Assembly: GCA_964593655.1 (NCBI GenBank)
Contig: CAZQIP010000206.1
Coordinates: 16,963-80,962, forward strand
DNA length: 64,000 bases
Source: an uncultured bacterium
GTDB lineage: Bacteria; Poribacteria; WGA-4E; WGA-3G
Direction of reading: 5' to 3'
The position numbers were made by a program, and so were the translations under genes. Below, in pieces: positions 8,626 through 43,316 of the stretch; the first letter of the stretch is position 1, and each line of letters opens with the position of its first letter. Under the pieces are notes generated by a model. The model saw only the letters and a program-made list of their open reading frames with translations, was not told the DNA's origin and searched no databases.

Positions 8626-11199
8626 ATGAAAAGGACGCAATTTCAAAAGGTTTTGACAAGGCTTCTCCAAATTATTTCATACCGTACGCGCTTTCTTGCT
8701 AAAACTCAGATAAAAAGATTAACTTTACTGCTCTTTGTGGTTTCAACCTTTTTGCAACCGAATGCTTTTGCCCAAAGTTATACACAATGGGATTTACCTG
8801 ACGGGGCTAAGGCACGTCTCGGTAAGGGATCTGCAGGCGGTTTAAAGTTTTCCGCTGATGGAAATCGCCTGATGGTCGAGAACGCTATCGGGATTTGGGT
8901 CTACGATGCCCACAGCGGTGTAGCACTGGATTTAATCACAAGAAATTTATCAGACAGTCTCGCTTTGAGTCCGGATGGTAGTACTGTTGCCGGTTGGGGA
9001 CCAGACGACAAGGTATGCCTGTGGCACGTAGCCGATAGCCAGAACAAATTAACACTTCAAGGTGATACCTCGAAAGTTCGGAGAATAACTTTCAGCCTGG
9101 ATAGTCGTACGGTTGCTGGCGGGACTTCGGACGATAAGGTAATACTATGGGATGTTGCCTCTGGCGCGCGCAAAGCAACACTCATTGGACACACACACGT
9201 AATCACTTCAGTAGCCTTTAGTCCGGATGGTAGCACGCTCGCGAGCGGTAGTTGGGACGAGACAGTGCGTTTATGGGATGTTGCGACCGGGGTGCGCAAA
9301 ACAACCCTCACAACACATACCGAAGGCATCTCTAATATTGCTTTCAGTCCGGATGGCCGCACTTTTGCGAGTTCAAGTTTCAACGAAGATAAAGTGATAC
9401 TATGGGATGTCGGGACTTGGCAGCAAAAAGCAGCTCTTAATACGGATATCAATTGTTTCGCTTTCAGTCCTGACAGCAGCACGCTTGCGACCGGAAGTTG
9501 GAGAGGCGAATTACACTTATGGGATGTCGCCAGTGGGACGCACAAAGCGGAATTCTTGGGGCATTTGTCAGGTATCTTTTCCGTTGCCTTCAGTCCAGAT
9601 GGCAAAACACTTGCCAGTGGTGGTGTGGACAAACTGTATCTATGGGACATTGATAGTGGTACGCGTAAATTATCGATTACCGGCCATACAGATGGTATTT
9701 ATTCAATTGCCTTCAGCCCAGATAGCAAAACGCTTGCAAGCGGGAGTTCTGAACAAATCCGTCTGTGGGATATCGCCGCAAGTACACACGAAGCGACGCT
9801 GTTTGTAGGAGACTGGGCAACTAATGCCGGTTTGGCCTTCAGTCCAGATGGCAATACGCTCGCAAGTGAGAGTGGTTTCCAAATCCATCTGTGGAACGTT
9901 AAGAATAGAACACACAGCGCAACCATCAGAAGATATGGGGAAACAACAAGCGGTTATGTCAGATACAGATCAATTGCTTTCAGTCGTGATGGCAGATTTC
10001 TTGCTCGTAGCGCGAGTAACAGCGTGCAGCTATGGTATGCGGGACGGACATATAAAAAGACACTTACTGGCCATACAAATAATGTCACTTCAATCGCCTT
10101 CAGTTACGATAGTCGAACCCTTGCAAGTGGTGGTGTAGACAACACAGTGCAGCTGTGGGATGTTGATACCGATACCCACAAAGCAACCTTCGCGGGACAT
10201 ACAGATATCGTTGTGAGTGTTGCGTTTAGTCCGGATGGTAGCCTCCTTGCGAGTGGTAGCGACGACAATACCATAATTCTATGGAGTATGGACACCGGGG
10301 AACCGAGAACTACCATCGTGGCACATACGAACGGTGTCAACGATGTGGCGTTCAGTCCAGATGGCAAAACCCTCGCGAGCTGTGGATATCGGGATGATAC
10401 CACTGTAAAACTGTGGGATGTTGAGACAGGTACGCTTAAAACTACTTTCTTTGGACACACGTATGGTATTACTGAAATTGCGTTTAGTCCGGATGGTCAG
10501 ACCCTTGCGAGCGGTGGTTTGGACGGTATAGTGCTTCTGTGGGATATGAATCCAGACGCAGTTGCTGAGATTGAAATCCCACGACTTGCAGAGGATGCAA
10601 ATGATGATGGTGTGGTAGACCTCCAGGATTTGGTTTTCGTTGCCTCGCAATTCGGGCAGTCTGGTGGAGAAAACGCTGCGGATATCAACGGGGACGGTGT
10701 TGTTGACATAGCAGATATCTTGTTGGTCGCTGGTGCCTTTGAGACCGGCAATGGTGCGCCATCTGCGTATTCTCGATCAATAGGATCGCTCACGGCTGGA
10801 GAAGTGGAGCAGTGGTTAATGCAAGCACAAGAAGTTAATGACAAGGGACCTGTCTTCCAAAGAGGTATTGCCGTGCTTCAAAGACTCTTGGATGTGCTAA
10901 CTCCGAAAGAGACGGTGCTTCTACCCAACTACCCGAACCCATTCAATCCAGAGACGTGGATCCCCTATCAGTTAGCAGAGTCAGCAGATGTGACACTCCG
11001 CGTCTATGCTGCGAGTGGTGAATTGGTACGGACACTGGCATTAGGGTATCAATCCGCGGGTATTTATCAAAGTCGTAGTCAAGCGGTGTATTGGGATGGT
11101 AAAAATGAACTCGGTGAACCTGTCGCAAGTGGTATGTATTTCTACACGTTATCTACTGGAAGGTTCACAGCAACACGGCGGATGGTCATACGGAAGTAA
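8626..11199 (+). CDS. Secreted WD40-repeat protein with dockerin-like Ca-binding repeats and T9SS/FlgD-Ig-like C-terminal domain
   Basis: AGGAGGG RBS before ATG 8626. Signal LTLLLFVVSTFLQPNAFAQ. More than 12 units of xAFSPDGxTLASGSxDxTVxLWDV. DANDDGVVDLQDL...DINGDGVVDIADIL. C-terminus LLPNYPNPFNPETWIPYQL...VYWDGKNELGEPVASGMYFY. Confidence 0.85.
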   Translation: MKRTQFQKVLTRLLQIISYRTRFLAKTQIKRLTLLLFVVSTFLQPNAFAQSYTQWDLPDGAKARLGKGSAGGLKFSADGNRLMVENAIGIWVYDAHSGVALDLITRNLSDSLALSPDGSTVAGWGPDDKVCLWHVADSQNKLTLQGDTSKVRRITFSLDSRTVAGGTSDDKVILWDVASGARKATLIGHTHVITSVAFSPDGSTLASGSWDETVRLWDVATGVRKTTLTTHTEGISNIAFSPDGRTFASSSFNEDKVILWDVGTWQQKAALNTDINCFAFSPDSSTLATGSWRGELHLWDVASGTHKAEFLGHLSGIFSVAFSPDGKTLASGGVDKLYLWDIDSGTRKLSITGHTDGIYSIAFSPDSKTLASGSSEQIRLWDIAASTHEATLFVGDWATNAGLAFSPDGNTLASESGFQIHLWNVKNRTHSATIRRYGETTSGYVRYRSIAFSRDGRFLARSASNSVQLWYAGRTYKKTLTGHTNNVTSIAFSYDSRTLASGGVDNTVQLWDVDTDTHKATFAGHTDIVVSVAFSPDGSLLASGSDDNTIILWSMDTGEPRTTIVAHTNGVNDVAFSPDGKTLASCGYRDDTTVKLWDVETGTLKTTFFGHTYGITEIAFSPDGQTLASGGLDGIVLLWDMNPDAVAEIEIPRLAEDANDDGVVDLQDLVFVASQFGQSGGENAADINGDGVVDIADILLVAGAFETGNGAPSAYSRSIGSLTAGEVEQWLMQAQEVNDKGPVFQRGIAVLQRLLDVLTPKETVLLPNYPNPFNPETWIPYQLAESADVTLRVYAASGELVRTLALGYQSAGIYQSRSQAVYWDGKNELGEPVASGMYFYTLSTGRFTATRRMVIRK

Positions 11200-32646: not shown

Positions 32647-35600
32647 ATGAGTTTGATACGTAATATGAATTTTGGCGCAGTTTGCAAACCGAAACTCGCT
32701 GTGCAAAGACTTATCACAGTATGTCTACTTGGCATCGTGTTCTTTATTAACGGCTGTGTTAAGATGGAGGCAACACGCAAAGCGGATTGGGAGACACATT
32801 TCACAGATATCCACTTTGTCAACCACAAACAGGGATGGATTGTCGGAGAGAGCGGTCTGATAATTCATACGGTAGATGGTGGAAAGACCTGGAAACAACA
32901 GGAAGTCGATACAACAAGTCCTGGATTTCGCATGCCTGATGCCTCGTTAGATTTCAAAGCGGTTTATTTTACAAACGCGCAGAATGGATGGGCAGTCGGC
33001 GATGAAGGATTAGTTGCAGCAACTGACGATGGCGGCAGACACTGGTCGTTGCAAAAGAGTGGCAGCTCCGCGATGCTCCTTGATGTCTTTTTTGCGAACT
33101 CAAAAGAAGGTTGGATTGTAGGCGAAGATTCGGATGTGCTCTATACCGAAAACGGTGGAAAAGAATGGAAACGCTACGAGTATGTTAGCGAATTTATGCT
33201 CAACGGGGTCTGGTTCGTTGATGATTCAAGCGGATGGGTTGTGGGTACACACGATAGAATTTTTCACACCAAGACGGGTGGCGAATCGTGGCGGGAACAG
33301 AGCAACCGCTTTGAAGGCGAACGCGATCGGATGATCAATGATAATAAACAGGTATTTTTCATCAGCGACAATGAAGGTTGGATCGTTGGCAGTGACGGGT
33401 CCATCTTCCATACGACGACTGGCGGTGCTAATTGGGAGCGTCAAGACAGTCGTATCCCGCTGATTAATGGGCACGTCCGAGATACGATCAATAGCATCCA
33501 TTTTACAGACGAAAACTATGGGGTCGCCGTGGCGGATGTCGGCTTTATTACGCGTACTGAGGATGGTGGCGACAATTGGCAATTGATGGAGAGCGGCACC
33601 GAAAACAATTTGACAGGCATCCAGTTCACCACGCCAACAGAGGCGTGGGCGGTTGGATGGTACGGTACGATTCTGCATACGACAGATGCCGGTGCGACCT
33701 GGGAGATGACGAGCGGTACGACAGCGAACGATTTACAGAATGTGCAGTTTACGGATGCCAACCGTGCGATTGCAGTGGGCAGACGTGGCACAATGGCGAT
33801 GAGCAACGACGGCGGACAGACATGGAACGAAATTGAGACAGATATCTGGGACGGCATTTGGAACATCTATTTCGCGACTGACAAGCACGGTTGGGCAGTC
33901 GGTGAACGCGGGCTTATTGTCCATACGAATGACGGCGGCATGAATTGGGAACGTCAGCGCGGTCCCACTGCCTTTACACTCCGTTCTGTCCACTTTGTTA
34001 GCCCTCAGGTTGGTTGGATTGTAGGCGATATTGGCAGTATTATACATACGATTGATGGTGGCAAAACATGGCTCCCACAAACCGCAACTGGGGATTTCTT
34101 CTCGCTCATGCTAAAGGGCGTATTTTTTCTTGATGAAAAGAAAGGTTGGGCTATTGGATGGCCCGGGGTTTGCCTCGCAACAGAAGACGGTGGTTTGACC
34201 TGGAACCAACAGACGACTGGTACCTTCAATGAACTCTACGCTGTCTATTTCACAGATGAAAACACTGGATGGATCGTTGGACAGTTCGGCGAGATTTTAC
34301 ATACAAAAAACGGCGGGAAAAAGTGGATTTTCCAACGCAGTGGGACTCAAGAGAACCTGAATAAACTCTATTTTGCGGATACACAGCACGGTTTAATCGT
34401 CGGGGATAACGGCGTGATGCTTACCACAACCAGTGGCGGGAAAAAATGGGAAATGCAGGAGAGTGGTACTGACAATGACCTTTATGGCTTAGCCCTCTCG
34501 CCTGATGGCGTTGTCGCTGTCGGTAAAGGCGGGATTGCGATGCGGTATTCGGTTGAGGAGGCACAACTGCCTGCCAAGTTACCACCTGTTGCCGAAGCGT
34601 CTGAACTCGTCGCTGCCGAAGAAGAAACTCCGGTTGAACCCGTTGCTTACCATTGGGACATTATCCGTCAGGCGGCTTGGCGCACTGATTTTGCAGATAC
34701 GCACTTTGTAGATGCCCAAAACGGTTGGGCAGTCGGTTCCGGTGGTGTTATCGCCCGTACTATGGACGGCGGGAAAACGTGGCTACCGCAACATAGTGGT
34801 GTCAGTGAAAATCTGCGCGAAGTGGAATTCGTTGATGCAAAACATGGAAGAGTTCTCGGTTCTGGCACTTTACTCCAGACAGAAAATGGTGGCGAAACGT
34901 GGCAGCCGATCCTTCAAGCGACCAAACAAAACCTTCCTCGCGTTAGCACGATGCACTTCCTGAACGCCGAAGAGGGATGGCTTGGTGCCTCGATTGGGCA
35001 GACCTTGCATACTACTGATGGGGGCAAGACGTGGAAAGTCCAAAAAACCGGAACAACAACAGGAAACATCACCGATCTCCATTTCATCAATAGTCAAGTA
35101 GGGTGGGCAGTGACGCCGCAACGTCGAGACGGTGGATTTATCCTTCATACAGTTGACGGCGGGGACTACTGGAAAATTCAGGCGAAAACCAATCAACCCG
35201 GTATCGCTGTTCACTTTGCCGACGAAAACCGCGGTTGGGTAATCCTCGGTAACGGGAACTCTTTGTTGACTGAAGATGGTGGCGAAACATGGCAATTGAA
35301 GACCACGTCACAAAGCACACGCGGTTTACGACGTGTTACCTTCCGTTCGCATACCAAAGCGTGGGGACTGGGCGGCGGCGGTGCATATATCACCGAAGAC
35401 CAAGGGGTGAATTGGAAGGCTATCCCCGTCGCTACAAGAGACGAGATACTCGCCATGCGACAACCTGATCCAGAGATACCGGAAGAACCCGCGCCAGAAA
35501 CAGAAAAAGATGAATCGGAAGATGAGGTTGCTGAGGGACCCACGTTACAGTATGACGAGACACCGGAGGAAATACAAAATCGGCTTCGAGCAGAGAACCA

Positions 35601-36738
35601 ACGTGCGGGGCGTCTTGCACCTGAAGGGACACTCCCGCCTAATGCAGAGCGGGCAACGCCAGCATCCGCACAGCAACAACCCCCTCCACCACCAGAACCC
35701 AGAGGACGCAGGCGCGGTGGTCGCCGAATTGCGAGTGTGTATTTCCTTGATACAGAACACGCATGGGCAGTTGGCAGTGCTGGTAGCATTTACTACTCTG
35801 CAGATGGTGGGAAGACATGGGAACGTCAACTCGGTGAACAAGAACGCAGCGATTTCCGAGAGGTGCTTTTCTACGATGACAAAAACGGTTGGATCGCAGG
35901 TGACGGCGGTATGTTATTGGAAACTCAAGACGGTGGAGAAACATGGCAGAAACTCCGAAGTCAAACGCGTCAACGCTTCATCGGTATACACTTCGCAAGC
36001 TTAGAACCGAAATGGGGATGGGCAATGCAACGTGATGGGACTGTGCTGTACACTACAGACGGCAACATTTGGACAGCAGGAGATACACCTGAACGTCCGC
36101 CGTTTATGGAAGACGATCCGCCCGGTAATTTCTCGCTAAACGACGTTGCTTTTGGTAAATTCTCTGAAGGCTGGGCAGTCGGACAATTCGGGGACATTAT
36201 CCACAATAAAGATGGCGGTCCTACATGGACCCTTCAACGGACGACTGCAAACGATAGGCTTACGAGTGTGGATATGCAATTCGCACCGCTCGGTTGGGCA
36301 GTCGGGCAAGGTGGTGTCACCCAGCGAACTATTAATGGTGGTCAATATTGGCGGCTGCATGAGACGAAGACCAACTACAATCTCAACGCTGTTTCATTTA
36401 TTAGCAAGCGGAAAGGATGGGCAGCGGGTGAGGCAGGCATCGTCCTCAGGACAATTGATGGTGGCTTTACGTGGGAACCCATATTGACGGGTGTTCCCAA
36501 AGATCTTCACGGCATTGTTTCGCTCTCGGAACAGGAGATTTACGCTGTTGGCAATGAAGGAACGATTGTCCGTTCAACCGACGGTGGTGAGACGTGGGAA
36601 CAAGAACATACCGATATTGATAATAACTTGTATGTTATTACGCGTTCTAAGGACGGTAAAGCCTTGTGGGTCGTTGGACAGTGGGGTGTTGTGCTCCGTC
36701 GGAAGTTAGAAACGCAGGAGAAGATGTCAATGCGATAA
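32647..36738 (+). CDS. Giant Ycf48/BNR-like multi-beta-propeller lipoprotein
   Basis: 1363 aa. GGAGGGG RBS; lipobox-like VFFINGC. About 26 blades with the (D/N)GGxTW signature in three blocks, separated by an acidic linker and a Pro/Glu/Arg-rich low-complexity linker (QQQPPPPPEPRGRRRGGRR). Confidence 0.85.
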   Translation: MSLIRNMNFGAVCKPKLAVQRLITVCLLGIVFFINGCVKMEATRKADWETHFTDIHFVNHKQGWIVGESGLIIHTVDGGKTWKQQEVDTTSPGFRMPDASLDFKAVYFTNAQNGWAVGDEGLVAATDDGGRHWSLQKSGSSAMLLDVFFANSKEGWIVGEDSDVLYTENGGKEWKRYEYVSEFMLNGVWFVDDSSGWVVGTHDRIFHTKTGGESWREQSNRFEGERDRMINDNKQVFFISDNEGWIVGSDGSIFHTTTGGANWERQDSRIPLINGHVRDTINSIHFTDENYGVAVADVGFITRTEDGGDNWQLMESGTENNLTGIQFTTPTEAWAVGWYGTILHTTDAGATWEMTSGTTANDLQNVQFTDANRAIAVGRRGTMAMSNDGGQTWNEIETDIWDGIWNIYFATDKHGWAVGERGLIVHTNDGGMNWERQRGPTAFTLRSVHFVSPQVGWIVGDIGSIIHTIDGGKTWLPQTATGDFFSLMLKGVFFLDEKKGWAIGWPGVCLATEDGGLTWNQQTTGTFNELYAVYFTDENTGWIVGQFGEILHTKNGGKKWIFQRSGTQENLNKLYFADTQHGLIVGDNGVMLTTTSGGKKWEMQESGTDNDLYGLALSPDGVVAVGKGGIAMRYSVEEAQLPAKLPPVAEASELVAAEEETPVEPVAYHWDIIRQAAWRTDFADTHFVDAQNGWAVGSGGVIARTMDGGKTWLPQHSGVSENLREVEFVDAKHGRVLGSGTLLQTENGGETWQPILQATKQNLPRVSTMHFLNAEEGWLGASIGQTLHTTDGGKTWKVQKTGTTTGNITDLHFINSQVGWAVTPQRRDGGFILHTVDGGDYWKIQAKTNQPGIAVHFADENRGWVILGNGNSLLTEDGGETWQLKTTSQSTRGLRRVTFRSHTKAWGLGGGGAYITEDQGVNWKAIPVATRDEILAMRQPDPEIPEEPAPETEKDESEDEVAEGPTLQYDETPEEIQNRLRAENQRAGRLAPEGTLPPNAERATPASAQQQPPPPPEPRGRRRGGRRIASVYFLDTEHAWAVGSAGSIYYSADGGKTWERQLGEQERSDFREVLFYDDKNGWIAGDGGMLLETQDGGETWQKLRSQTRQRFIGIHFASLEPKWGWAMQRDGTVLYTTDGNIWTAGDTPERPPFMEDDPPGNFSLNDVAFGKFSEGWAVGQFGDIIHNKDGGPTWTLQRTTANDRLTSVDMQFAPLGWAVGQGGVTQRTINGGQYWRLHETKTNYNLNAVSFISKRKGWAAGEAGIVLRTIDGGFTWEPILTGVPKDLHGIVSLSEQEIYAVGNEGTIVRSTDGGETWEQEHTDIDNNLYVITRSKDGKALWVVGQWGVVLRRKLETQEKMSMR

Positions 36739-36828: not shown

Positions 36829-36857
36829 TTGACACACTAAATAGAATATGTTACACT
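36829..36857 (+). promoter_or_regulatory. Sigma70-like promoter candidate (TTGACA-17 nt-TACACT)
   Basis: TTGACA 36829-36834, 17-nt spacer, TACACT 36852-36857; AAGGAGG RBS at about 36888 before ATG 36899. Confidence 0.4.
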
Positions 36858-36898: not shown

Positions 36899-37135
36899 AT
36901 GAAAACAATTACACACGCTCAGGTGCAACAGTTAGTAAAAAAACTTCCGGAAGCCAAACTACCGCTTGCCTATCGTTTATTGGTCGATTTAGATAACAGG
37001 GACATAGATGAACAGTCTCCGCAGTCAATTTTCATGGCGCTTTCCTCAGCGGAGCGTCAACGTGTTCTCGCGCAGCAAGCTGAACAGATGAAAACTCACT
37101 ATGAACACGCTGCCAAGGAGCCTGTAGACCTATAG
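36899..37135 (+). CDS. Small antitoxin-like protein (family not recognised)
   Basis: 78 aa with strong promoter and RBS signals, directly followed by a MazF/PemK-like N-terminal fragment. Confidence 0.4.
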   Translation: MKTITHAQVQQLVKKLPEAKLPLAYRLLVDLDNRDIDEQSPQSIFMALSSAERQRVLAQQAEQMKTHYEHAAKEPVDL

Positions 37136-37175
37136 ATAGGAAATTTCATTGATGCATATCAGACACAATGAGATT

Positions 37176-37238
37176 ATGCCAGTTTATGTGAACCGAGGGG
37201 AAATCTGGCAGGTGGATCTTCATGGGAGTGTAAGGTAA
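37176..37238 (+). pseudogene. Truncated MazF/PemK-like toxin remnant (20 codons)
   Basis: MPVYVNRGEIWQVDLHGSVR-stop. RGEIWxVDL is the conserved N-terminal strand of PemK/MazF toxins. The ORF ends 5 nt before a 22-bp inverted repeat. Confidence 0.4.
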
Positions 37239-37242
37239 ACCC

Positions 37243-37307
37243 GGTTCGTAGTGGTGCGATTCATCACACGGAAGCCCAAGGCGCAATGAATTGCACCACT
37301 ACGAACC
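37243..37307. repeat. Strong isolated hairpin / MITE-like inverted repeat
   Basis: GGTTCGTAGTGGTGCGATTCAT (37243-37264) pairs with ATGAATTGCACCACTACGAACC (37286-37307): 21 of 22 positions complementary, 21-nt loop. Confidence 0.8.
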
Positions 37308-37354: not shown

Positions 37355-37966
37355 ATGAACAACATACTAAAAATTGTACGCGAGCAAGTGCTAGATTTAC
37401 TCAACGATTTAGACGCATCAATTGTAAAACATGAAGGGCACGAATACACAGAATTCCACAGATTATCTGAATATTTTGGAGTTAATAAGAGTAATGCCTC
37501 TCGTAATCGTCAGGATTACCCTAATTTATCTGTTCAGTTGGAGAAGAATGGAAGAAAAATATGGTTCATCCGGATCGATTTCATTCCATGGTGGGTTGCT
37601 AAATCAACTTCAAATCATGGTAAAAAGTCACCTAACGCCCAGAGACATGTTGTGGACTTCCTCAGTAAAATTGGTATTTTTGTTCCAGAAGCACCTCAGT
37701 ATCTTTATTTCGTTGAATCGGAAGAAACAGAGTATATCAAAATTGGGGTTACTGCAAACTATCATTCGGGCGGTAGACTGAACATACTGAAACAGACTGA
37801 TGGCGACTGTCGAGAGTTAGCAGTGCTCCAACTTGATAATGCCTACGAGTGGGAGAAAAAGATCCATCGCCTTTTTAGTGATCTAAACGTTGAAGGAGAA
37901 TGGTTTAGAGGAGACAAAAAGTTAATAGACTTTATTGACGAAGTTAGCAAACGAGATACCAATTGA
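37355..37966 (+). CDS. T5orf172/MUG113-type (GIY-YIG-like) domain protein with unknown N-terminal domain
   Basis: 203 aa. C-terminal YLYFVESEETEYIKIGVTANYHSGGRLNILKQ...AYEWEKKIHRLFSDLNVEGEWFRGDKKLIDFI matches the T5orf172 pattern. The gene is visibly AT-rich (about 35-37% GC by eye). Confidence 0.7.
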   Translation: MNNILKIVREQVLDLLNDLDASIVKHEGHEYTEFHRLSEYFGVNKSNASRNRQDYPNLSVQLEKNGRKIWFIRIDFIPWWVAKSTSNHGKKSPNAQRHVVDFLSKIGIFVPEAPQYLYFVESEETEYIKIGVTANYHSGGRLNILKQTDGDCRELAVLQLDNAYEWEKKIHRLFSDLNVEGEWFRGDKKLIDFIDEVSKRDTN

Positions 37967-38042
37967 GTTTCCTTCAACCACCTCAGAGCGGATCGGCGTT
38001 CATTTGACTTACCTGATCGAACCGTAAGGAAAAATTAAAAAG

Positions 38043-39017
38043 ATGAAATCGAAATCCAGTAAAGCGTTCTTTGTTTCAGTCCTATTGCATCTCGGCATCG
38101 GGGTGCTTGGATTCTTCTATTGGTTTAGTACGGCTCCGATGCGAGAAGCGTCGAGTATTAACGCCTTGTTTGTTAGGGAAGAGAAACCGAAAGTTCGACG
38201 TGTAACGCCGCCGAAACGTGCCCAAATTGTCAAGGAAAAGACCCGCGATGTTAGTCAGCAACGTCTGAAAATCCTCACGAGCAACGCGCCCGTCAGCAGT
38301 CGTGGGGTGGTTTCCGCAGCGGAACCCGCACCCTTCCAGCAGTTCGACAACAAGGACTTAGTCGAACCCATTGGACCCACCGCAACATCTGTCGAATTTG
38401 ACAATGTGCCTCGTGTGCAAAAGGTTATTGAACGTCCTTTTGTGAAACAAGAGAAAGTCGAAACCCGATATAAAAGCAGATTAGTGAGGTTCATTGAAGC
38501 ACAAGAGGGACCCCAGCGGATTGTCTACTGCGTGGATTTGTCAACCAGTATGCAAAACCTACCGCCGCACAAACTCAAAAAGATTATAGACCTCATGCGA
38601 GATTCGCTGACTTTCCTTGAGTCACACGATAGTTTTAATATTGTTGCATTTAGTACGGAGTTGGTCGTTTACAAAGAAAACTTTGACCCGGTAACCGATG
38701 AAACAGTTGCCGCGTCGTCAAACTATCTCGCCGACATCCAATCCCAAATCCGCACAAAAGGTACCGATCACGATATGCTAACTGCCTTGACGGAAATCGC
38801 CAAGACTTCACCCACCCTCGTTGTCCTCTTTAGCGATGGCATCCCTACCACGATCGAGGGACCAGATCTGACGCTTGTGGGTCAATACGCCACGGGCAAT
38901 GGACGCATTTTCGCCATGGGGATTGGGATGTCCCCCAATTTCCCCGGCGCAGTGATGTTGAAACGCCTTGCTACGGTCAGTCAGGGAGATTTGTGGCTGG
39001 TTGACAGAGGCCGATAA
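38043..39017 (+). CDS. Membrane-anchored von Willebrand factor A (VWA) domain protein
   Basis: 324 aa. TonB-like N-terminal anchor AFFVSVLLHLGIGVLGFFYWF, Pro/Lys linker, and MIDAS residues CVDLSTSM ... GTDHD ... LFSDGIPT. Confidence 0.75.
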   Translation: MKSKSSKAFFVSVLLHLGIGVLGFFYWFSTAPMREASSINALFVREEKPKVRRVTPPKRAQIVKEKTRDVSQQRLKILTSNAPVSSRGVVSAAEPAPFQQFDNKDLVEPIGPTATSVEFDNVPRVQKVIERPFVKQEKVETRYKSRLVRFIEAQEGPQRIVYCVDLSTSMQNLPPHKLKKIIDLMRDSLTFLESHDSFNIVAFSTELVVYKENFDPVTDETVAASSNYLADIQSQIRTKGTDHDMLTALTEIAKTSPTLVVLFSDGIPTTIEGPDLTLVGQYATGNGRIFAMGIGMSPNFPGAVMLKRLATVSQGDLWLVDRGR

Positions 39018-39028
39018 GGGGACATTGC

Positions 39029-40858
39029 ATGCAGCAAGACAGCCTTACGCGTGCCGAAGAAATTTCCCAAGGTTTATATCCGCACCAAATAGAAGGGATC
39101 GCTTTTCTGCTCGGTCGCCGTCGTGCGCTCCTTGCTGATGATATGGGACTCGGCAAAACGCGTCAGTCGGTGATCGCGATGGTCGAGGCGGCAGCAGAAG
39201 GCCCCTATCTTGTGATCTGTCCGGCCTCTATTAAACGCAACTGGGCACGTGAAATCGAAATCGTTTTCCCAGACGCTGAACCTACCATCGTTGGTCCCGG
39301 ACCGCTCCCCGGTATAGATTACAGTGGTTGGATCATTGTCAATTATGAAATCCTTGGTAAAAACCTTGAGAAACTCCTTGCGTTTGACTGGAAAGGCGTT
39401 GTTTTTGACGAAGCACATTACCTAAAAAATTATCAGAGTCAGCGGAGTCGAAACGCATCAAAACTGGTTAAAGAGATTAAGCATGATCCTGTAGTCCACG
39501 CGTTAACCGGTACGCCAATGACAAGCCGTCCGCGCGATCTTTTTCCGTTGCTGCAGATTCTGGATCATCCTCTCGGAAAGAGTTTCCTCAGTTTTGCGAA
39601 ACGTTATTGTGAAGCGTATCAAGGAGACTTCGGATTAGTAGCAGATGGTGCAAGCAACCTCGAGGAATTGACTGTGCAACTCCACGGTGTCATGCTGCGC
39701 CGCACAAAAGATGAGGTATTAGACCTTCCACCGAAGGTGCGAACGTGGATGGACGTTGAACTGCACCCTTATGCAATCCAACACTTCAATCGACTGGTAC
39801 AAGAATTCATATCAAAATTTGACACGCCTGAAGCGATTGATGGAACACCAGAATCCGTTGGTTTATCATCAGCACACCGCGATGAATTAGACGATTCAAT
39901 AGACACGACGGATTTAGGAAGTGGAATGGGTAGGATAACCCAAGTGCGGCGGGCGATTGCTTTTGTTAAATGTCGTCACACCATTAAATTCGTGGAAAAT
40001 GCGCTGGAACAAGGTGAAAAAGTAATTATCTTCACCTCCTTCCTCAATACGATGCAGCGATTCCAAAAACATTTCAAGGACCGAGCGGTTTATGTTTCCG
40101 GTGAAGTCCCTGCTCACGAGAGACAAGACAGAGTAGACCGCTTTCAAAACGATGACGACATCAAAATTTTCGTAGCCAACATGCACATAGCAGGCGTTGG
40201 TATAAATCTCACCGCGGCGCGACAGGTCGTCTTTAATGACTTAGATTGGGTGCCTGCTAATCACTGGCAGGCGGAAGATCGGGCCTATCGGATCGGTCAG
40301 ACAGGAACCGTTAATGTCACCTATATGATTGCGACTGGAACTGTTGATTCGTTTGTTAAGACAGTATTAGAAACCAAAGCAGCATTGATGGATTCCATCG
40401 TCGAAGGCTCAATTTTGATACCGGGAGGCGAGGCTGCTCTCCAGCTGGATGTCCTCAGCGAACTCAAACGGATGATGAATGCTTTGTCTATCCAAACCAC
40501 TAAACTTGAAGTATCTGAACTGCATGACGTGCTTCAGAAAGCGGGAGATGTCTACCTTGAAGAGAATGCCTCACACCTCCGCGAAGCGGCGCGTGCGCAG
40601 CTGCGTCCATATTCCGAAGAAGCCATCCGCACGTTAGCCCAAGTCCTTTCTGGTCCTGAACGGCGCATCTACCACGCCGAGAGTTCATCCCAGAAAGGTA
40701 AGTTTTACACGCTGGAGGTTGTCGGTGTAGATATAACGTGCGATTGTCCAGGTTTCACGCACCGTGGCAGTTGCCGACACGTCCGTCCCCTGAAATCTGC
40801 GCTTGTCGCTGGGAACCCGTTGCCGAAAGGGTATAAGCAAGTTTCACCCCAGAAATGA
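39029..40858 (+). CDS. SNF2-family helicase/ATPase with C-terminal SWIM zinc finger
   Basis: 609 aa. LADDMGLGKTRQSV (motif I), VVFDEAHYLKN (II), LTGTPMTSRP (III), QAEDRAYRIGQ (VI). SWIM CDCPGFTHRGSCRH at nt 40739-40780. Confidence 0.9.
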   Translation: MQQDSLTRAEEISQGLYPHQIEGIAFLLGRRRALLADDMGLGKTRQSVIAMVEAAAEGPYLVICPASIKRNWAREIEIVFPDAEPTIVGPGPLPGIDYSGWIIVNYEILGKNLEKLLAFDWKGVVFDEAHYLKNYQSQRSRNASKLVKEIKHDPVVHALTGTPMTSRPRDLFPLLQILDHPLGKSFLSFAKRYCEAYQGDFGLVADGASNLEELTVQLHGVMLRRTKDEVLDLPPKVRTWMDVELHPYAIQHFNRLVQEFISKFDTPEAIDGTPESVGLSSAHRDELDDSIDTTDLGSGMGRITQVRRAIAFVKCRHTIKFVENALEQGEKVIIFTSFLNTMQRFQKHFKDRAVYVSGEVPAHERQDRVDRFQNDDDIKIFVANMHIAGVGINLTAARQVVFNDLDWVPANHWQAEDRAYRIGQTGTVNVTYMIATGTVDSFVKTVLETKAALMDSIVEGSILIPGGEAALQLDVLSELKRMMNALSIQTTKLEVSELHDVLQKAGDVYLEENASHLREAARAQLRPYSEEAIRTLAQVLSGPERRIYHAESSSQKGKFYTLEVVGVDITCDCPGFTHRGSCRHVRPLKSALVAGNPLPKGYKQVSPQK

Positions 40859-40864
40859 TAGGAT

Positions 40865-41698
40865 TTAGTAATTTTTGATGAACAGATCTCTACCTTTTGC
40901 GGCACTGTCCTTCCGATAATTGTTCATTCCGTATTGGAGTGTCCACTCCTGAATTTCGGCGAAATCAAAGAGTTTCCTGATAACAGGCGAGTCATCGTAG
41001 GTAATCAGCCATCTGTGTGGACACTTCTTCATATTCTTGGCGAATCGTGTGTGATCAAATGTAGCATGCAGTTCGCCTCTCACTCCGTATAATTTCGATT
41101 CGGTTGCTTTCCAATAGGGCGGGTCCAGGAAGATAAACACATCATCGCCGTCTTGAAAAAGTGCGTCGGCGTAATCCCAGTTCGTGATTTTGACCCCAGA
41201 AAGATAAGGTGAAATGTTTTTCACACGTTCAATAGACGACTCCGTAAAACGTTTTTCATAAGCGGCTTGTGAATATCCTCCAGAATCTACAACGCCGGAG
41301 AAAGTAATCCGATTTAGTACGAAAAAGCGCACTGCGCGTTGGAATTCACAGAGCATATCTCGGTTTTGGTTCAATTGATCTTTCGCTTGTGTTAGTTCCT
41401 CAAACAAGGCGCGCCCGTTTGTAGTGGTCGTGTGCGTATTTGTTAACCCTTCAACCAAATTTGGGCCATTGTCTCTTGTCTGTTTCCAAAAGCAGTAGAG
41501 GTCGTAGTTAAGGTCATTGATCCAGTAAGATTTGATACGGTCTTGAAAGAGGTTTCGGATTGCAAAAAAGACAGAACCACCACCGACGAAAGGCTCCCGG
41601 AACTCGGATATATTTACCGGAATAAGCGGCAAGATCTGTTTTAGGGCTCTGGATTTACCACCGGGGTATCGTAACGGGCTTTTTGCTGTTTTAGCCAT
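40865..41698 (-). CDS. dam: DNA adenine methyltransferase, D12 class (Dam family)
   Basis: 277 aa. LRYPGGKSRAL, FREPFVGGGSVFF (AdoMet motif), FIFLDPPYW (DPPY). Its stop lies 6 nt from the stop of the convergent SNF2 gene. Confidence 0.88.
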   Translation of the reverse strand: MAKTAKSPLRYPGGKSRALKQILPLIPVNISEFREPFVGGGSVFFAIRNLFQDRIKSYWINDLNYDLYCFWKQTRDNGPNLVEGLTNTHTTTTNGRALFEELTQAKDQLNQNRDMLCEFQRAVRFFVLNRITFSGVVDSGGYSQAAYEKRFTESSIERVKNISPYLSGVKITNWDYADALFQDGDDVFIFLDPPYWKATESKLYGVRGELHATFDHTRFAKNMKKCPHRWLITYDDSPVIRKLFDFAEIQEWTLQYGMNNYRKDSAAKGRDLFIKNY

Positions 41699-41881
41699 GA
41701 TGATCTGCTATCAAGATACTCTGGAAAAATTTATGGGTGTTCATCTCAGAACATTCTCACTACTTTACAAAGTATAACATGCCTCACCTTACTTTTCAAT
41801 CTGTTCATTGGAAGTTTTAAATCACATTCCATTTCGGTTTCTCCCCGTTTTAACGAAACTCCTTTCATCCGAATTTTCTGC

Positions 41882-41910
41882 TTGACACCTGTCTAAAAAT
41901 CCCGTAAAAT
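41882..41910 (+). promoter_or_regulatory. Sigma70-like promoter candidate (TTGACA-17 nt-TAAAAT) for the sulfatase gene
   Basis: TTGACA 41882-41887, 17-nt spacer, TAAAAT 41905-41910; about 40 nt upstream of ATG 41949. Confidence 0.45.
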
Positions 41911-41948
41911 GAGAACAGCCAAATCTAAATAGAGAGGAAAATAGAGAT

Positions 41949-43316
41949 ATGCCACAAGACTCAAATCAACCCAATGTTATCGTTTTTTTCACCGACCAGC
42001 AGCGGTGGGATACATCCGGCTTGCACGGAAATCCGCTCGACTTGATGCCGAACTTCGACCGGATGGCACAACGCGGTACACATGTCCGTCGATCTTTCAC
42101 ATGCCAACCTGTCTGTGGGCCTGCGCGCTCGTGCCTACAAACAGGATTATACGCCACACGGACAGGATGTTTCCGAAATGGTATTCCACTCTCACCAAAC
42201 CTCAAGACCCTCGCACACCACTTCGGTGAGGCAGGCTACGCGACCGGATATATCGGTAAGTGGCACCTCTATAGCGGTGGTGGCACTGGACCGGGGCCCG
42301 TGCCTGCGGAGCATCGCGGTGGGTATGATTATTGGTTAGCATCCAATACGCTCGAATTTACTTCCGACGCATATCAGACAACGCTTTATGATAATGACAA
42401 TAAACCCGTTGACCTTCCCGGCTATCGTGTAGACGCGCTCACCGATGCAGTGATACGCTACGTTGACCGACATAAAACCGAACCATTTTATCTTTTTACC
42501 TCATACATTGAACCACACCACCAAAACCATTTAGACGACTATCCGCCGCCGGACGGGTACCGGGAGCGGTATACGGGGAAATGGATACCACCGGATCTTG
42601 CTGCGCTCGGTGGATCAACGCACCAGCACTTAGGTGGTTACTACGGTATGGTGAAAAGGTTGGATGAAGCACTCGGCAGACTTTTAGATGCTCTCAAAAG
42701 TCTCCACCTACTTGATAACACGATTATTCTTTTTACCTCTGACCATGGATGTCATTTCAAAACCCGTAATGGTGAATATAAACGCTCATGCCATGAAAGT
42801 TCTATCCGTGTGCCGACTGCGTTCCACGGAGCCGATTTCATTGGTGGTGGACAGCTCCAAGAACTCGTCAGTCTCGTTGATCTTCCGCCGACGCTGCTTG
42901 ATGCTGCAGGTTTGGAAGTCCCGGCTGAAATGCAAGGCAGATCTATTATGCCGTTGGTACGGGGGGAAACGGACGACTGGCCAGAAGAGGTTTTCGTCCA
43001 AATTAGCGAGGCGCAGGTCGGGCGCGCGGTTCGGACGCAACGTTGGAAATACGGTGTAGATGCCCCGAATAAGAGCGGTGGCAGAGATGCCGGGTCAGAC
43101 CGGTATGTGGAGCAATACCTTTATGATCTTCAGGCAGATCCATACGAGTTACGGAATCTCGTCGGACTTCAATCGCATGAACCGGTTACAGAGGTCATGC
43201 GGGAACGGCTCATTCGGCGGATGTTGGAGGCAGGCGAAGAGGCACCAACGGTCGAAGCAGCACCTACACAACGGAGCGGACAGCGCAGTGTAACCGAAGC
43301 GGAGGCGCGAAGTTAG
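41949..43316 (+). CDS. Sulfatase (formylglycine-dependent), cytoplasmic-looking N-terminus
   Basis: 455 aa. VIVFFTDQQR, CQPVCGPARSCLQTGLY, FTSDHG. Confidence 0.9.
   Translation: MPQDSNQPNVIVFFTDQQRWDTSGLHGNPLDLMPNFDRMAQRGTHVRRSFTCQPVCGPARSCLQTGLYATRTGCFRNGIPLSPNLKTLAHHFGEAGYATGYIGKWHLYSGGGTGPGPVPAEHRGGYDYWLASNTLEFTSDAYQTTLYDNDNKPVDLPGYRVDALTDAVIRYVDRHKTEPFYLFTSYIEPHHQNHLDDYPPPDGYRERYTGKWIPPDLAALGGSTHQHLGGYYGMVKRLDEALGRLLDALKSLHLLDNTIILFTSDHGCHFKTRNGEYKRSCHESSIRVPTAFHGADFIGGGQLQELVSLVDLPPTLLDAAGLEVPAEMQGRSIMPLVRGETDDWPEEVFVQISEAQVGRAVRTQRWKYGVDAPNKSGGRDAGSDRYVEQYLYDLQADPYELRNLVGLQSHEPVTEVMRERLIRRMLEAGEEAPTVEAAPTQRSGQRSVTEAEARS

What the first reader, a model, noticed from the sequence alone, without database searches (positions are those of the whole stretch)
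37355..41698. Accessory island: T5orf172 nuclease-like protein + membrane-anchored VWA protein + SNF2/SWIM helicase with convergent Dam methylase, a candidate uncharacterised defence-type system
Three co-directional genes have gaps of 76 and 11 nt. (1) 37355..37966: unknown N-terminal ~120 aa plus a T5orf172/MUG113 GIY-YIG-like domain. (2) 38043..39017: TonB-like single TM anchor, Pro/Lys linker, and a VWA domain with complete MIDAS residues. (3) 39029..40858: SNF2 ATPase with all core motifs and a C-terminal SWIM finger, CDCPGFTHRGSCRH. A D12-class Dam methylase converges on the helicase, with only 6 nt between the two stops. The first gene is clearly AT-richer than its surroundings (about 35-37% versus roughly 45-50% GC by eye). 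The block is bounded on the left by a decayed toxin-antitoxin locus plus a 22-bp inverted repeat, and on the right by a 250-bp AT-rich spacer. The outer neighbours (giant BNR propeller, sulfatase) look like core genes. Nuclease-like protein + SNF2 helicase + adenine methylase recalls DISARM/BREX-type logic, but their signature genes are absent, and I know of no named system with a membrane VWA partner. Function is inference only.
Basis: partly seen in the sequence, partly recalled or inferred. Interest (0 to 1): 0.75.

Follow-up and report, generated by a model that had tools for sequence, protein, structure and literature searches.

The report
Mosaic locus, not one defence system
The four genes are real, but they are not one machine: a gene pair kept throughout the sponge-symbiont phylum Poribacteria (a membrane-anchored VWA protein and an SNF2/SWIM helicase) sits between two insertion hotspots that hold strain-specific leftovers of selfish and defence elements.

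Summary
The T5orf172 gene is absent from 78 of 78 species-level Poribacteria loci that carry the VWA gene. It occurs only in a few near-identical strains, where it is intact, internally deleted, or reduced to a 41-nt stub. It is the most AT-rich ORF in the window.

The "Dam" gene is 57-59% identical to M.CbeI, an N4-cytosine GGCC methyltransferase. It is the orphaned half of a Type II restriction-modification operon whose nuclease gene has been cleanly deleted here.

Only the VWA and SNF2/SWIM genes form a conserved, compositionally native pair: 67 of 83 VWA-anchored loci and 5 of 5 SNF2-anchored loci. That pairing is confined to Poribacteria. The same roughly 600-aa SNF2/SWIM family is solitary in other phyla, often in mobile-element or toxin-antitoxin contexts. 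VWA persists without SNF2 in about 10 species, and SNF2 alleles recombine independently of VWA. The VWA protein has an invariant TonB/TolA-type Ser-x3-His membrane helix, which suggests a periplasmic role.

Verdict: an ordinary mosaic of known element types around an uncharacterised, lineage-specific gene pair. Interest is modest.

The parts
36899..37135 (+). Antitoxin gene (78 aa) of a PemK/MazF-type toxin-antitoxin pair; strain-variable cargo of the left hotspot.
   Evidence: 97% identical to the 78-aa gene that precedes an intact PemK_toxin gene in L082. Absent from 80 of 80 other loci. A promoter-like site lies at 36829-36857, but the number of such sites in the region is not above chance.
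37152..37239 (+). Stump of the PemK/MazF toxin gene: the first 26 codons, followed by a deletion of about 420 bp.
   Evidence: tblastn with L082 PemK gives 92% identity over residues 1-26 only. The DNA alignment jumps from L082 9402 to 9825.
37243..37307 (.). 22-bp inverted repeat (hairpin) between the toxin-antitoxin remnant and T5orf172.
   Evidence: Two arms with 1 mismatch, 0 expected by chance. The same arms occur in L082 around a longer loop. No T-run follows, so it is not a canonical terminator. Function unresolved.
37355..37966 (+). T5orf172 / GIY-YIG-type nuclease-like gene with an unassigned N-terminal ~115 aa; AT-rich, strain-variable, probably a homing-endonuclease-like selfish gene.
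   Evidence: Pfam hit. GC 38.4%, the lowest of 41 ORFs. Only 4 close clusters among 5.8 billion proteins. Contexts are shown. Remote phage endonuclease/homing-endonuclease relatives appear.
38043..39017 (+). Poribacteria-specific VWA protein: a TonB/TolA-like N-terminal membrane helix with invariant Ser12-x3-His16, a poorly conserved K/R/P/E-rich linker, and a VWA domain with full MIDAS.
   Evidence: Pfam. 270 homologue clusters, of which the 120 shown are at least 74% identical and the named ones are Poribacteria. Found in 78 species loci. Conservation profile. TolA N-terminus hit. SHLS motif literature.
39029..40858 (+). SNF2 ATPase (prokaryotic SSO1653/Rad54-like core) with a C-terminal SWIM zinc finger; no nuclease domain.
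   Evidence: Pfam. Best PDB match 1z63, E 1.6e-49. Invariant CxC...CxH. Sits directly downstream of VWA in 67 of 83 loci and in 5 of 5 SNF2-anchored loci.
40865..41698 (-). Orphan Type II methyltransferase, M.CbeI-like (probably m4C at GGCC); a relic of a two-gene R-M operon.
   Evidence: 57-59% identity to 7m6b, M.CbeI. M.CbeI biochemistry from PMC3425538. PADLOC MTase_II 2e-119. Relatives carry a 380-aa REase_II gene (4e-57) overlapping it. A 1.1-kb deletion of that gene is seen here.
41699..41948 (.). AT-rich spacer homologous to the region upstream of the lost restriction gene; holds divergent promoter-like sites for the methylase and the sulfatase.
   Evidence: GC 35.6%. Window 41723-41799 and 41872-41998 align to L084 15295-15367 and 15390-15518, just upstream of the REase start. 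Promoter-like sites lie at 41799-41771 (-) and 41882-41910 (+).

Best explanation
The locus is a mosaic of independent units, not one system.

(1) The conserved pair. VWA and SNF2/SWIM are a vertically inherited, compositionally native gene pair of Poribacteria.
- The VWA protein is most likely an inner-membrane, TonB/TolA-style protein. Its Ser-x3-His helix would dock on an ExbBD/TolQR-type motor. A flexible linker would span the periplasm and present a metal-dependent (MIDAS) VWA binding domain there. This topology and partner are inferred.
- The SNF2/SWIM protein is a cytoplasmic ATP-driven double-stranded DNA translocase. Its SWIM finger would select a DNA or protein substrate. It belongs to a widespread family of roughly 600 aa that is solitary elsewhere.
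- Their adjacency most likely reflects lineage-specific co-transcription or synteny, not a physical complex.

(2) The left hotspot, between the BNR gene stop and the VWA start. In this strain it holds a decayed PemK/antitoxin pair, a hairpin, and an AT-rich T5orf172 gene. I read T5orf172 as a free-standing homing-endonuclease-like element made of a DNA-binding N-terminus and a GIY-YIG-type nuclease. Such elements invade, then decay.

(3) The right hotspot, between SNF2 and the sulfatase. It once held a CbeI-like Type II restriction-modification operon. The nuclease gene was deleted, leaving an orphan methyltransferase that probably makes m4C at GGCC and is expressed from the old operon promoter.
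For: Absence of a triad: T5orf172 and the antitoxin are in 0 of 80 related loci.

Boundaries of the left hotspot: homology to relatives stops at the BNR stop (36737/36742) and resumes at 38027-38043. In relatives the interval holds a C5 methylase with a HaeII remnant, Uma2, TnpB, WD40 genes or nothing.

T5orf172:
- It occurs at this site only in a few strains. It is intact in L084/L085, has an in-frame 265-bp deletion in L082, and survives as a 41-nt 3' stub in L005 and L007.
- The only other close homologue sits in an unrelated context.
- GC z-score is about -3.5.
- T5orf172 genes are documented homing-endonuclease-type genes in phages (PMC10448857).

Methylase:
- 57-59% identical to M.CbeI, which is a GGCC m4C enzyme.
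- Relatives have REase_II (4e-57) plus the methylase overlapping by 8 nt.
- The window lacks exactly the REase ORF.
- GGCC is depleted, O/E 0.31.

The pair:
- SNF2 follows VWA by 10-260 nt in 67 of 83 loci, in two different upstream contexts.
- 5 of 5 SNF2-anchored Poribacteria loci have VWA upstream.

Against obligate coupling of the pair:
- VWA occurs without SNF2 in about 10 species, including VWA followed by the sulfatase after 61 nt in L066.
- None of the roughly 47 non-Poribacteria SNF2/SWIM loci with upstream DNA has this VWA, or any conserved neighbour.
- Pairwise identities of the two proteins correlate only at r = 0.52. The two SNF2 allele types do not track VWA.

VWA anchor: S12 and H16 are invariant in 67 sequences. 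The helix is the best conserved segment and the linker the worst. Ser-His is the contact to ExbB/TolQ in the cryo-EM structures.
Against: The VWA-SNF2 adjacency is better conserved (about 80%) than the adjacency of SNF2 to the clearly unrelated sulfatase block (about 40%). It also survives a change of upstream context. The 11-nt gap with a GGGGA ribosome-binding site suggests co-transcription. A functional link therefore cannot be excluded.

The periplasmic location of the VWA domain is inferred only from the charge distribution and the TonB/TolA analogy. The AlphaFold model was unusable (pLDDT 42).

No ExbBD/TolQR partner was looked for. Homing by the T5orf172 protein and the GGCC specificity of the methylase are inferred from homology, not shown.

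T5orf172 always keeps the same 76-nt junction to VWA. This could also mean an old association with later loss.
Confidence: 0.68

Rival explanations
1. VWA and SNF2/SWIM form a true two-gene module with Zorya-like logic. The membrane-anchored VWA protein, possibly coupled to a proton-driven motor through its Ser-x3-His helix, senses an envelope event such as phage attachment or DNA entry. It then recruits or activates the SNF2/SWIM translocase on incoming or host DNA.
For: Adjacency in 67 of 83 VWA-anchored and 5 of 5 SNF2-anchored Poribacteria loci, on the same strand with short gaps, kept in two upstream contexts. The best PADLOC match of the helicase core is ZorD (7e-57). The pair is flanked on both sides by hotspots filled with R-M, TA, Uma2 and TnpB genes. 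Outside Poribacteria the SNF2/SWIM family often lies in TA/Abi islands or mobile elements. SNF2 shows allele dimorphism and clean presence/absence, as conflict genes often do.
Against: VWA is kept without SNF2 in about 10 species, and SNF2/SWIM is solitary in every other phylum sampled. SNF2 alleles are exchanged independently of VWA. There is no nuclease or other effector and no ZorA/B-like genes. The ZorD similarity is to the generic SNF2 core: NCBIfam 107 bits against a cut-off of 1500, and PDB ZorD 8qy7 at only 5e-23 against 1.6e-49 for SsoRad54. Both genes have native composition, and in one clade they sit among housekeeping genes. The predicted topology places VWA in the periplasm and SNF2 in the cytoplasm.
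Confidence: 0.15
2. One reading: T5orf172 nuclease, VWA, SNF2/SWIM helicase and the adenine methylase make one new DISARM/BREX-like defence system.
For: Co-directional genes with short gaps and a convergent methylase 6 nt away. The same T5orf172-VWA-SNF2-methylase order recurs in L084/L085. There is a weak PADLOC hit of T5orf172 to candidate PDC-S57 (1.7e-4).
Against: T5orf172 is in 0 of 78 species loci and decays in near relatives. The methylase has its own restriction partner in relatives and is M.CbeI-like. It is present in 16 of 83 VWA-anchored loci (17 loci have some match in the matrix). In about half of the methylase-bearing loci it is separated from SNF2 by 2-6 kb of other cargo, or SNF2 is absent altogether. 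The composition of T5orf172 differs from that of the other genes. No DISARM, BREX or Zorya signature genes are present.
Confidence: 0.03
3. SNF2/SWIM is itself accessory cargo: a domesticated mobile-element or defence helicase that landed once next to the core VWA gene in the Poribacteria ancestor. It has since been kept, lost or swapped as a single-gene unit.
For: Clean presence/absence between VWA and the sulfatase in L066 against L057/L064/L073. Two allele types are shuffled among species with a break near the gene start. Family members occur next to resolvase/AlpA/terminase, transposases, a serine integrase and TA/Abi islands, and in IMG/VR contigs with the same SWIM tail. There is no conserved partner outside Poribacteria.
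Against: Native GC and GC3. 72-100% protein identity is maintained across the phylum, higher than for VWA. It always occupies the same locus. It has no effector domain. This reading overlaps with the best explanation rather than excluding it.
Confidence: 0.3

Closest known systems
CbeI / M.CbeI Type II restriction-modification system (GGCC; alpha-class N4-cytosine methyltransferase; also Anabaena DmtB)
   Same: The window methylase is 57-59% identical over its full length to M.CbeI. That is the same level as between the two characterised GGCC m4C enzymes M.CbeI and DmtB. Relatives encode an adjacent, overlapping Type II REase. GGCC is depleted in the window.
   Different: The restriction gene is deleted here, so the methylase is an orphan. 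Specificity and base (m4C against m6A) have not been measured. The 380-aa REase of the relatives has no solved-structure relative.
Free-standing T5orf172 (GIY-YIG subfamily) homing endonuclease genes of phages, and their domesticated relatives (ICP1 HEGs, PLE CapR, Odn)
   Same: A C-terminal T5orf172 domain with an N-terminal extra region. It sits in an intergenic position next to a conserved gene. It shows presence/absence and in-frame deletion alleles among close strains. Its composition is foreign.
   Different: It is chromosomal in a bacterium rather than in a phage, and no match was found in IMG/VR. The N-terminal region has no CapR/DUF723-type zinc finger and no Pfam hit. Cleavage and homing are untested.
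TonB / TolA energy-transducing proteins
   Same: An N-terminal signal-anchor helix with Ser-x3-His, invariant and the most conserved part of the protein, followed by a long, charged, proline-containing, poorly conserved linker.
   Different: The C-terminal TonB_C/TolA-III domain is replaced by a VWA/MIDAS domain. The Leu and Ser of the full SHLS motif are not in register. No motor partner has been identified.
Prokaryotic SSO1653/Rad54-like SNF2 translocases, and SNF2 proteins of defence systems (ZorD, DrmD, DpdE, BrxH)
   Same: A complete SNF2 core. The best solved relative is S. solfataricus Rad54-like 1z63 (1.6e-49). PADLOC core matches to ZorD, DpdE and DrmD.
   Different: Only 609 aa, with no nuclease or other N-terminal domains and a C-terminal SWIM finger. 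All NCBIfam scores are far below cut-off: ZorD 107 of 1500, DrmD 67 of 950, RapA 36 of 576. None of the partner genes of those systems is present.
PemK/MazF-type II toxin-antitoxin loci
   Same: Antitoxin followed by a toxin with the N-terminal RGEIWxVDL motif; intact in L082.
   Different: In the window the toxin has been reduced to 26 codons by a deletion of about 420 bp. The antitoxin ORF remains.

Membership tests
DISARM | DrmA helicase, DrmB (DUF1998) and DrmC (PLD), together with DrmD/DrmMI or DrmE/DrmMII | tested here: not met
   PADLOC and NCBIfam scans of the five proteins give only a DrmD-like SNF2 core match: 1e-29, and 67 bits against a cut-off of 950. No DrmA/B/C-like ORF lies in 36.7-42 kb.
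BREX | PglZ phosphatase, BrxC ATPase and PglX methylase | tested here: not met
   None detected. The only match is a BrxH-like helicase core (4e-21). The methylase is a 277-aa D12-class Type II enzyme, not PglX.
Zorya | ZorA/ZorB MotAB-like membrane pair plus ZorC and ZorD (SNF2 with nuclease) | tested here: not met
   The ZorD profile match covers only the helicase half. NCBIfam ZorD scores 107 bits against a cut-off of 1500. PDB ZorD 8qy7 scores 5e-23, weaker than many eukaryotic remodellers. No ZorA/B/C genes are adjacent.
Type II restriction-modification (CbeI-like) | Methyltransferase homologous to M.CbeI/DmtB | tested here: met
   E 1.8e-98 and 57-59% identity over 272 columns. PADLOC MTase_II 2e-119.
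Type II restriction-modification (CbeI-like) | Cognate restriction endonuclease adjacent to the methylase | tested here: not met
   No trace in the window by tblastn (best E 1.6). It is present in L084 and related loci as REase_II, 4e-57. The window methylase is therefore an orphan.
Type II restriction-modification (CbeI-like) | GGCC m4C modification of host DNA | not testable with these tools
   Only indirect evidence: 52 GGCC sites observed against 167 expected in the window.
E. coli-type Dam (GATC m6A) | Orthology to Dam | tested here: not met
   TIGR00571 scores 103 bits, below the cut-off of 114.85. PRK10904 scores 39 against 441. PDB Dam gives only E 3e-6, against 1.8e-98 for M.CbeI.
T5orf172 homing-endonuclease-like genes | T5orf172/GIY-YIG-type domain above the family threshold | tested here: met
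   PF10544 at 32.6 bits (cut-off 20) and PF13455 at 33.5 bits (cut-off 22.3).
T5orf172 homing-endonuclease-like genes | Separate DNA-binding domain | tested here: inconclusive
   The N-terminal 122 aa have no Pfam hit. The AF2 model shows a helix/hairpin pattern, but mean pLDDT is 70 with four poor models, and Foldseek finds nothing below E 0.07.
T5orf172 homing-endonuclease-like genes | Presence/absence polymorphism at a fixed site, with degenerate copies | tested here: met
   The same 76-nt junction to VWA is seen in the window, L082 and L084. The gene is absent in 78 species loci. There is an in-frame deletion in L082 and a 41-nt stub in L005/L007.
T5orf172 homing-endonuclease-like genes | Site-specific cleavage of the empty allele and gene conversion | not testable with these tools
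   Needs biochemistry or genetic crosses.
TonB/TolA family | N-terminal TM helix with Ser-x3-His of the SHLS motif | tested here: met
   S12 and H16 are invariant in 67 of 67 sequences and in 31 of 31. The role of the motif is described. The Leu and Ser of the full motif are not in register.
TonB/TolA family | C-terminal TonB_C or TolA domain III | tested here: not met
   The C-terminal domain is VWA. The only TolA model match is to residues 7-76 (E 0.006).
TonB/TolA family | ExbBD/TolQR-type motor partner | not tested
   The genome outside this locus was not surveyed.
SWIM zinc finger | CxCxnCxH signature | tested here: met
   CDCPGFTHRGSCRH. The four ligands are invariant in 11 homologues of 39-53% identity. 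The Pfam score here is below threshold (16.2 against 19.6), but PF04434 is on record for relatives.
RapA/HepA | Orthology to the RNA-polymerase-associated SNF2 protein | tested here: not met
   NF003426 scores 36.5 bits against a cut-off of 576.

The most novel reading that the evidence does not exclude
The Poribacteria-wide pair is a new two-component module. A TonB/TolA-like, possibly proton-motive-force-coupled membrane protein carries a VWA/MIDAS head and signals an envelope event to a minimal SNF2/SWIM DNA translocase. This would be a Zorya-like 'membrane sensor plus SNF2' logic built from unrelated parts. The flanking hotspots would then reflect a defence-island setting.
Probability: 0.12. 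Interest if true: 0.7.

Novelty: new member of a known kind. Interest (0 to 1): 0.3.

Why it matters
The result mostly clears the ground. A plausible-looking four-gene "defence system" dissolves into familiar pieces once relatives are compared: an orphaned GGCC methylase, a decaying toxin-antitoxin pair, and a homing-endonuclease-like T5orf172 gene. The lesson is that gene proximity in a single genome is weak evidence.

Two things remain of modest interest:
- A phylum-specific protein family joins a TonB/TolA-type Ser-x3-His anchor to a VWA/MIDAS domain. It could be a new kind of energised periplasmic binder in sponge symbionts.
- A minimal family of roughly 600 aa, SNF2 with a C-terminal SWIM finger, is spread over several phyla and mobile elements and has no known function.

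The two hotspots flanking the pair are also convenient markers for strain-level turnover of defence genes in Poribacteria.

Tried and rejected
- AlphaFold2 of the VWA protein with 31 homologues gave pLDDT 42, with only the TM helix confident, so it was not used for fold search.
- AlphaFold2 of T5orf172 with 4 sequences gave pLDDT 70 for one model and 35-48 for the others. Foldseek against the PDB returned nothing below E 0.07.
- PDB sequence searches for T5orf172 and for the 380-aa REase found nothing.
- An IMG/VR scan for T5orf172 found nothing.
- An exact 15-mer of the hairpin arm is absent from the other 89 loci. The arms are recognisable only in L082. I could not decide whether the hairpin is a mobile-element end, a regulatory site or a relic.
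- A literature search for SNF2 + SWIM zinc finger + bacterial + helicase returned no paper. A search for SWIM/SNF2/vWA gave only general conflict-system surveys.
- I first read the 136-aa call in L084 as a truncated T5orf172. Translation shows an intact gene of about 204 aa that overlaps the end of the C5 methylase ORF.
- DISARM, BREX, Zorya, RapA and Dam memberships were considered and rejected (see the membership tests).
- The MerR-VWA genes near SNF2/SWIM in two Gemmatimonadota-like contigs were considered as evidence for a general SNF2-VWA link. I rejected this because those VWA proteins are cytoplasmic, share only generic similarity with the Poribacteria VWA (E 0.014), and come from related contigs.


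Full report
**Observation.**
- Pfam confirms a MUG113/T5orf172 domain at residues 116-191 of the 203-aa protein.
- It confirms a VWA domain at residues 159-315 of the 324-aa protein.
- It confirms SNF2-rel_dom plus Helicase_C in the 609-aa protein, and MethyltransfD12 in the 277-aa protein.
- The MIDAS residues (D165-x-S167-x-S169, T241, D265) are invariant or nearly invariant (at least 90%, T241) in 31 homologues.
- The SWIM finger scores just below the Pfam threshold on this sequence. Its four ligands are nevertheless invariant in homologues of only 39-53% identity.
- The 22-bp inverted repeat is real and unique in the window.
- A toxin-antitoxin remnant is present: an intact 78-aa antitoxin and the first 26 codons of a PemK/MazF toxin.
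- T5orf172 has 38.4% GC, the lowest of 41 long ORFs (mean 48.5%, sd 2.9). VWA (49.4%) and SNF2 (48.9%) are average, and the methylase (44.4%) is mildly low.

**Source organism and comparison set.** The VWA protein has 270 homologue clusters. The 120 shown are 74-96% identical, and the named ones are Candidatus Poribacteria. A scan of one genome per species returned 78 Poribacteria loci with VWA identity of 58-96%. I scored these, plus loci from later look-ups, with tblastn using the window's proteins.

**The triad is not conserved.**
- T5orf172 and the antitoxin are absent from all 80 loci available at that stage.
- T5orf172 has only four close clusters among 5.8 billion proteins.
- One homologue (70% identity) lies in an unrelated context next to PEPCK and a desaturase.
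- The others sit at the same place as in the window, 76 nt upstream of VWA, in a few closely related contigs.
  - In L082 the left neighbours are the same antitoxin and an intact 126-aa PemK, and T5orf172 carries an in-frame 265-bp deletion that removes the nuclease core.
  - In L084/L085 the left neighbour is a C5 cytosine methylase, and T5orf172 is intact although the gene caller shortened it.
  - L005 and L007 keep only a 41-nt stub of its 3' end.
- Homology between the window and T5orf172-less relatives stops at the stop codon of the giant BNR gene and resumes 0-16 nt, at most about 50 nt, before the VWA start.
- In other species that interval holds a C5 methylase fused to a HaeII-nuclease remnant (28 ORFs), Uma2 (14), a TnpB/OrfB transposase, WD40 genes or almost nothing.

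This interval is therefore an insertion and turnover hotspot. T5orf172 domains are a GIY-YIG subfamily typical of free-standing homing endonuclease genes in phages, where in-frame deletion alleles and domain swaps are described (PMC10448857). The window protein has only remote phage relatives annotated as endonuclease or homing endonuclease. The selfish, homing-endonuclease-like reading fits the foreign composition, the rarity, the fixed right junction and the decay series. It remains an inference.

**The methylase is not Dam and not a partner of the helicase.**
- Its closest solved relative by far is 7m6b (E 1.8e-98, 57-59% identity), against E 3e-17 for DpnII M1 and E 3e-6 for E. coli Dam.
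- 7m6b is M.CbeI, an alpha-class N4-cytosine methyltransferase that modifies GGCC. It shares 57% identity with the other characterised GGCC m4C enzyme, DmtB, and had itself been mis-predicted as adenine-specific.
- In L084 and several other loci the methylase is preceded, with an 8-nt overlap, by a 380-aa gene that PADLOC calls a Type II restriction enzyme (4e-57).
- Alignment shows that the window lacks exactly that ORF (L084 14159-15294). The sequence upstream of the lost gene now abuts the methylase. This is the "250-bp AT-rich spacer", which also carries divergent promoter-like sites.
- The methylase is present in only 16 of 83 VWA-anchored loci and always lies near the sulfatase. Its distance from SNF2 ranges from 12 nt to 6 kb of other cargo.
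- GGCC occurs 52 times against 167 expected in the window.

**The conserved unit is VWA plus SNF2/SWIM, and only in Poribacteria.**
- A full-length SNF2 gene follows VWA by 10-260 nt in 67 of 83 VWA-anchored loci.
- This includes a divergent clade (VWA 58-68% identical) where the upstream genes are UvrD, GatA, a CtpA protease and an aldehyde dehydrogenase, and the downstream genes are ThuA, RecX and AlaRS.
- In an SNF2-anchored metagenome sample, all five Poribacteria-like contigs with upstream DNA carry VWA.

**Evidence against an obligate partnership.**
- About ten species keep VWA without any SNF2 trace. In L066 the sulfatase follows VWA after 61 nt.
- The SNF2/SWIM architecture (550-630 aa, with the CxCPGFxxRGxCxH tail) is widespread in Gemmatimonadota, Armatimonadota and others.
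- There it is solitary. None of six contexts with Pfam-annotated neighbours, and none of about 47 metagenome loci, has the Poribacteria-type VWA or any conserved neighbour.
- Several of those contexts are mobile or conflict-type: transposases, an AbiE/TA island, HigBA, resolvase/AlpA/terminase, and predicted viral contigs with a serine integrase.
- Within Poribacteria, pairwise identities of the two proteins correlate only at r = 0.52.
- SNF2 occurs in two allele types (about 78% and about 90% identical to the window). These are mixed among species with similar VWA and flanks, with the break near the start of SNF2.

**What the two proteins probably do.**
- The helicase has all SNF2 motifs. Its best solved relative is the S. 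solfataricus Rad54-like core (1z63, 1.6e-49). ZorD (8qy7) scores only 5e-23, and all NCBIfam scores for ZorD, DrmD, DpdE and RapA fall far below their cut-offs. It has no nuclease. I read it as a double-stranded DNA translocase whose SWIM finger selects a DNA or protein substrate.
- The VWA protein begins with a lysine-rich stretch and a helix, VSVLLHLGIGVLGFFYWF. In that helix S12 and H16 are invariant. The helix is the most conserved segment of the protein (89-94% identity even between clades), and the following linker is the least conserved (45-52%).
- Ser-x3-His is the part of the SHLS motif by which TonB and TolA contact ExbB and TolQ in the cryo-EM structures (PMC12215075). A weak TolA N-terminus match supports this reading.
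- I therefore infer an inner-membrane, N-in protein that presents its VWA/MIDAS domain in the periplasm and may be motor-coupled. That makes direct contact with a cytoplasmic helicase unlikely. Neither topology nor partner was tested, and the structure model was unusable.

**Comparison with known systems.** DISARM, BREX and Zorya signature genes are absent, and the helicase matches only their generic cores. The methylase belongs with CbeI-like Type II R-M systems as an orphan. T5orf172 belongs with homing-endonuclease-like GIY-YIG genes. The toxin-antitoxin remnant belongs with PemK/MazF loci. The VWA protein resembles TonB/TolA only in its anchor and linker. The SNF2/SWIM protein belongs to an uncharacterised prokaryotic SNF2 family.

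**Verdict.** The system-level interpretation is refuted by its own criterion. The accessory nature of three of the elements is supported. The remaining open question is whether the Poribacteria-wide VWA-SNF2/SWIM adjacency is functional. I put that at about 0.12-0.15.

Noticed in passing
whole window (1-64000): Strong avoidance of several restriction sites. CTAG occurs 4 times against 99 expected, and GGCC 52 against 167. HaeII sites (RGCGCY) total 2 against about 29 expected. The HaeII depletion matches the C5 methylase plus HaeII-nuclease remnant found in the left hotspot of relatives (L013 8669-9970).
   Followed up: partly
window 39029-40858 and SNF2 genes of L003-L085: The SNF2/SWIM gene occurs in two allele types in Poribacteria, about 78% and about 90% amino-acid identity to the window. 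They are mixed among species with similar VWA and flanking genes. The divergence begins near the start of SNF2, which implies recombinational exchange of the helicase gene alone.
   Followed up: partly
L089 11732-13722; L091 11319-13453: In two Gemmatimonadota-like contigs a MerR regulator plus a cytoplasmic VWA protein (34% identical to each other) lies 2.4-3.5 kb from the SNF2/SWIM gene. This VWA shares only generic VWA-domain similarity with the Poribacteria membrane-anchored VWA (E 0.014). The arrangement is possibly just local synteny.
   Followed up: partly
L017 8204-11671 (-) and 9 other loci, between SNF2 and the sulfatase: A 1155-aa protein recurs in the right hotspot of ten species. 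It has no family match except a C-terminal AbiEi/ArsR-like HTH.
   Followed up: no
L089 1-6002: Upstream of one non-Poribacteria SNF2/SWIM gene lies a DUF6361 protein, a 634-aa PLD-like protein and a 1314-aa helicase. This is possibly a defence cluster.
   Followed up: no
window 37243-37307; L082 about 9830-9965: The 22-bp inverted-repeat arms are conserved between the window and L082, but the loop is 21 nt in the window and about 90 nt in L082. The exact arm is absent from all other loci. Its nature (mobile-element end, regulatory hairpin or relic) is unresolved.
   Followed up: partly
window 32647-36738: The 1363-aa BNR/Ycf48-like repeat protein is conserved at 73-96% identity in 46 loci. 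In the look-ups its orthologues had no Pfam family on record, despite obvious GGxTW-type repeats.
   Followed up: no
window 38027-38043 and the equivalent positions in relatives: Sequence conservation upstream of the VWA start codon extends only 0-50 nt. The promoter of the conserved VWA-SNF2 pair must therefore lie in strain-variable DNA, or the pair is read through from upstream genes.
   Followed up: no
L081 8055-9850: The only T5orf172 homologue outside the VWA locus sits directly downstream of a PEPCK gene that is split into two ORFs of 283 and 300 aa.
   Followed up: no
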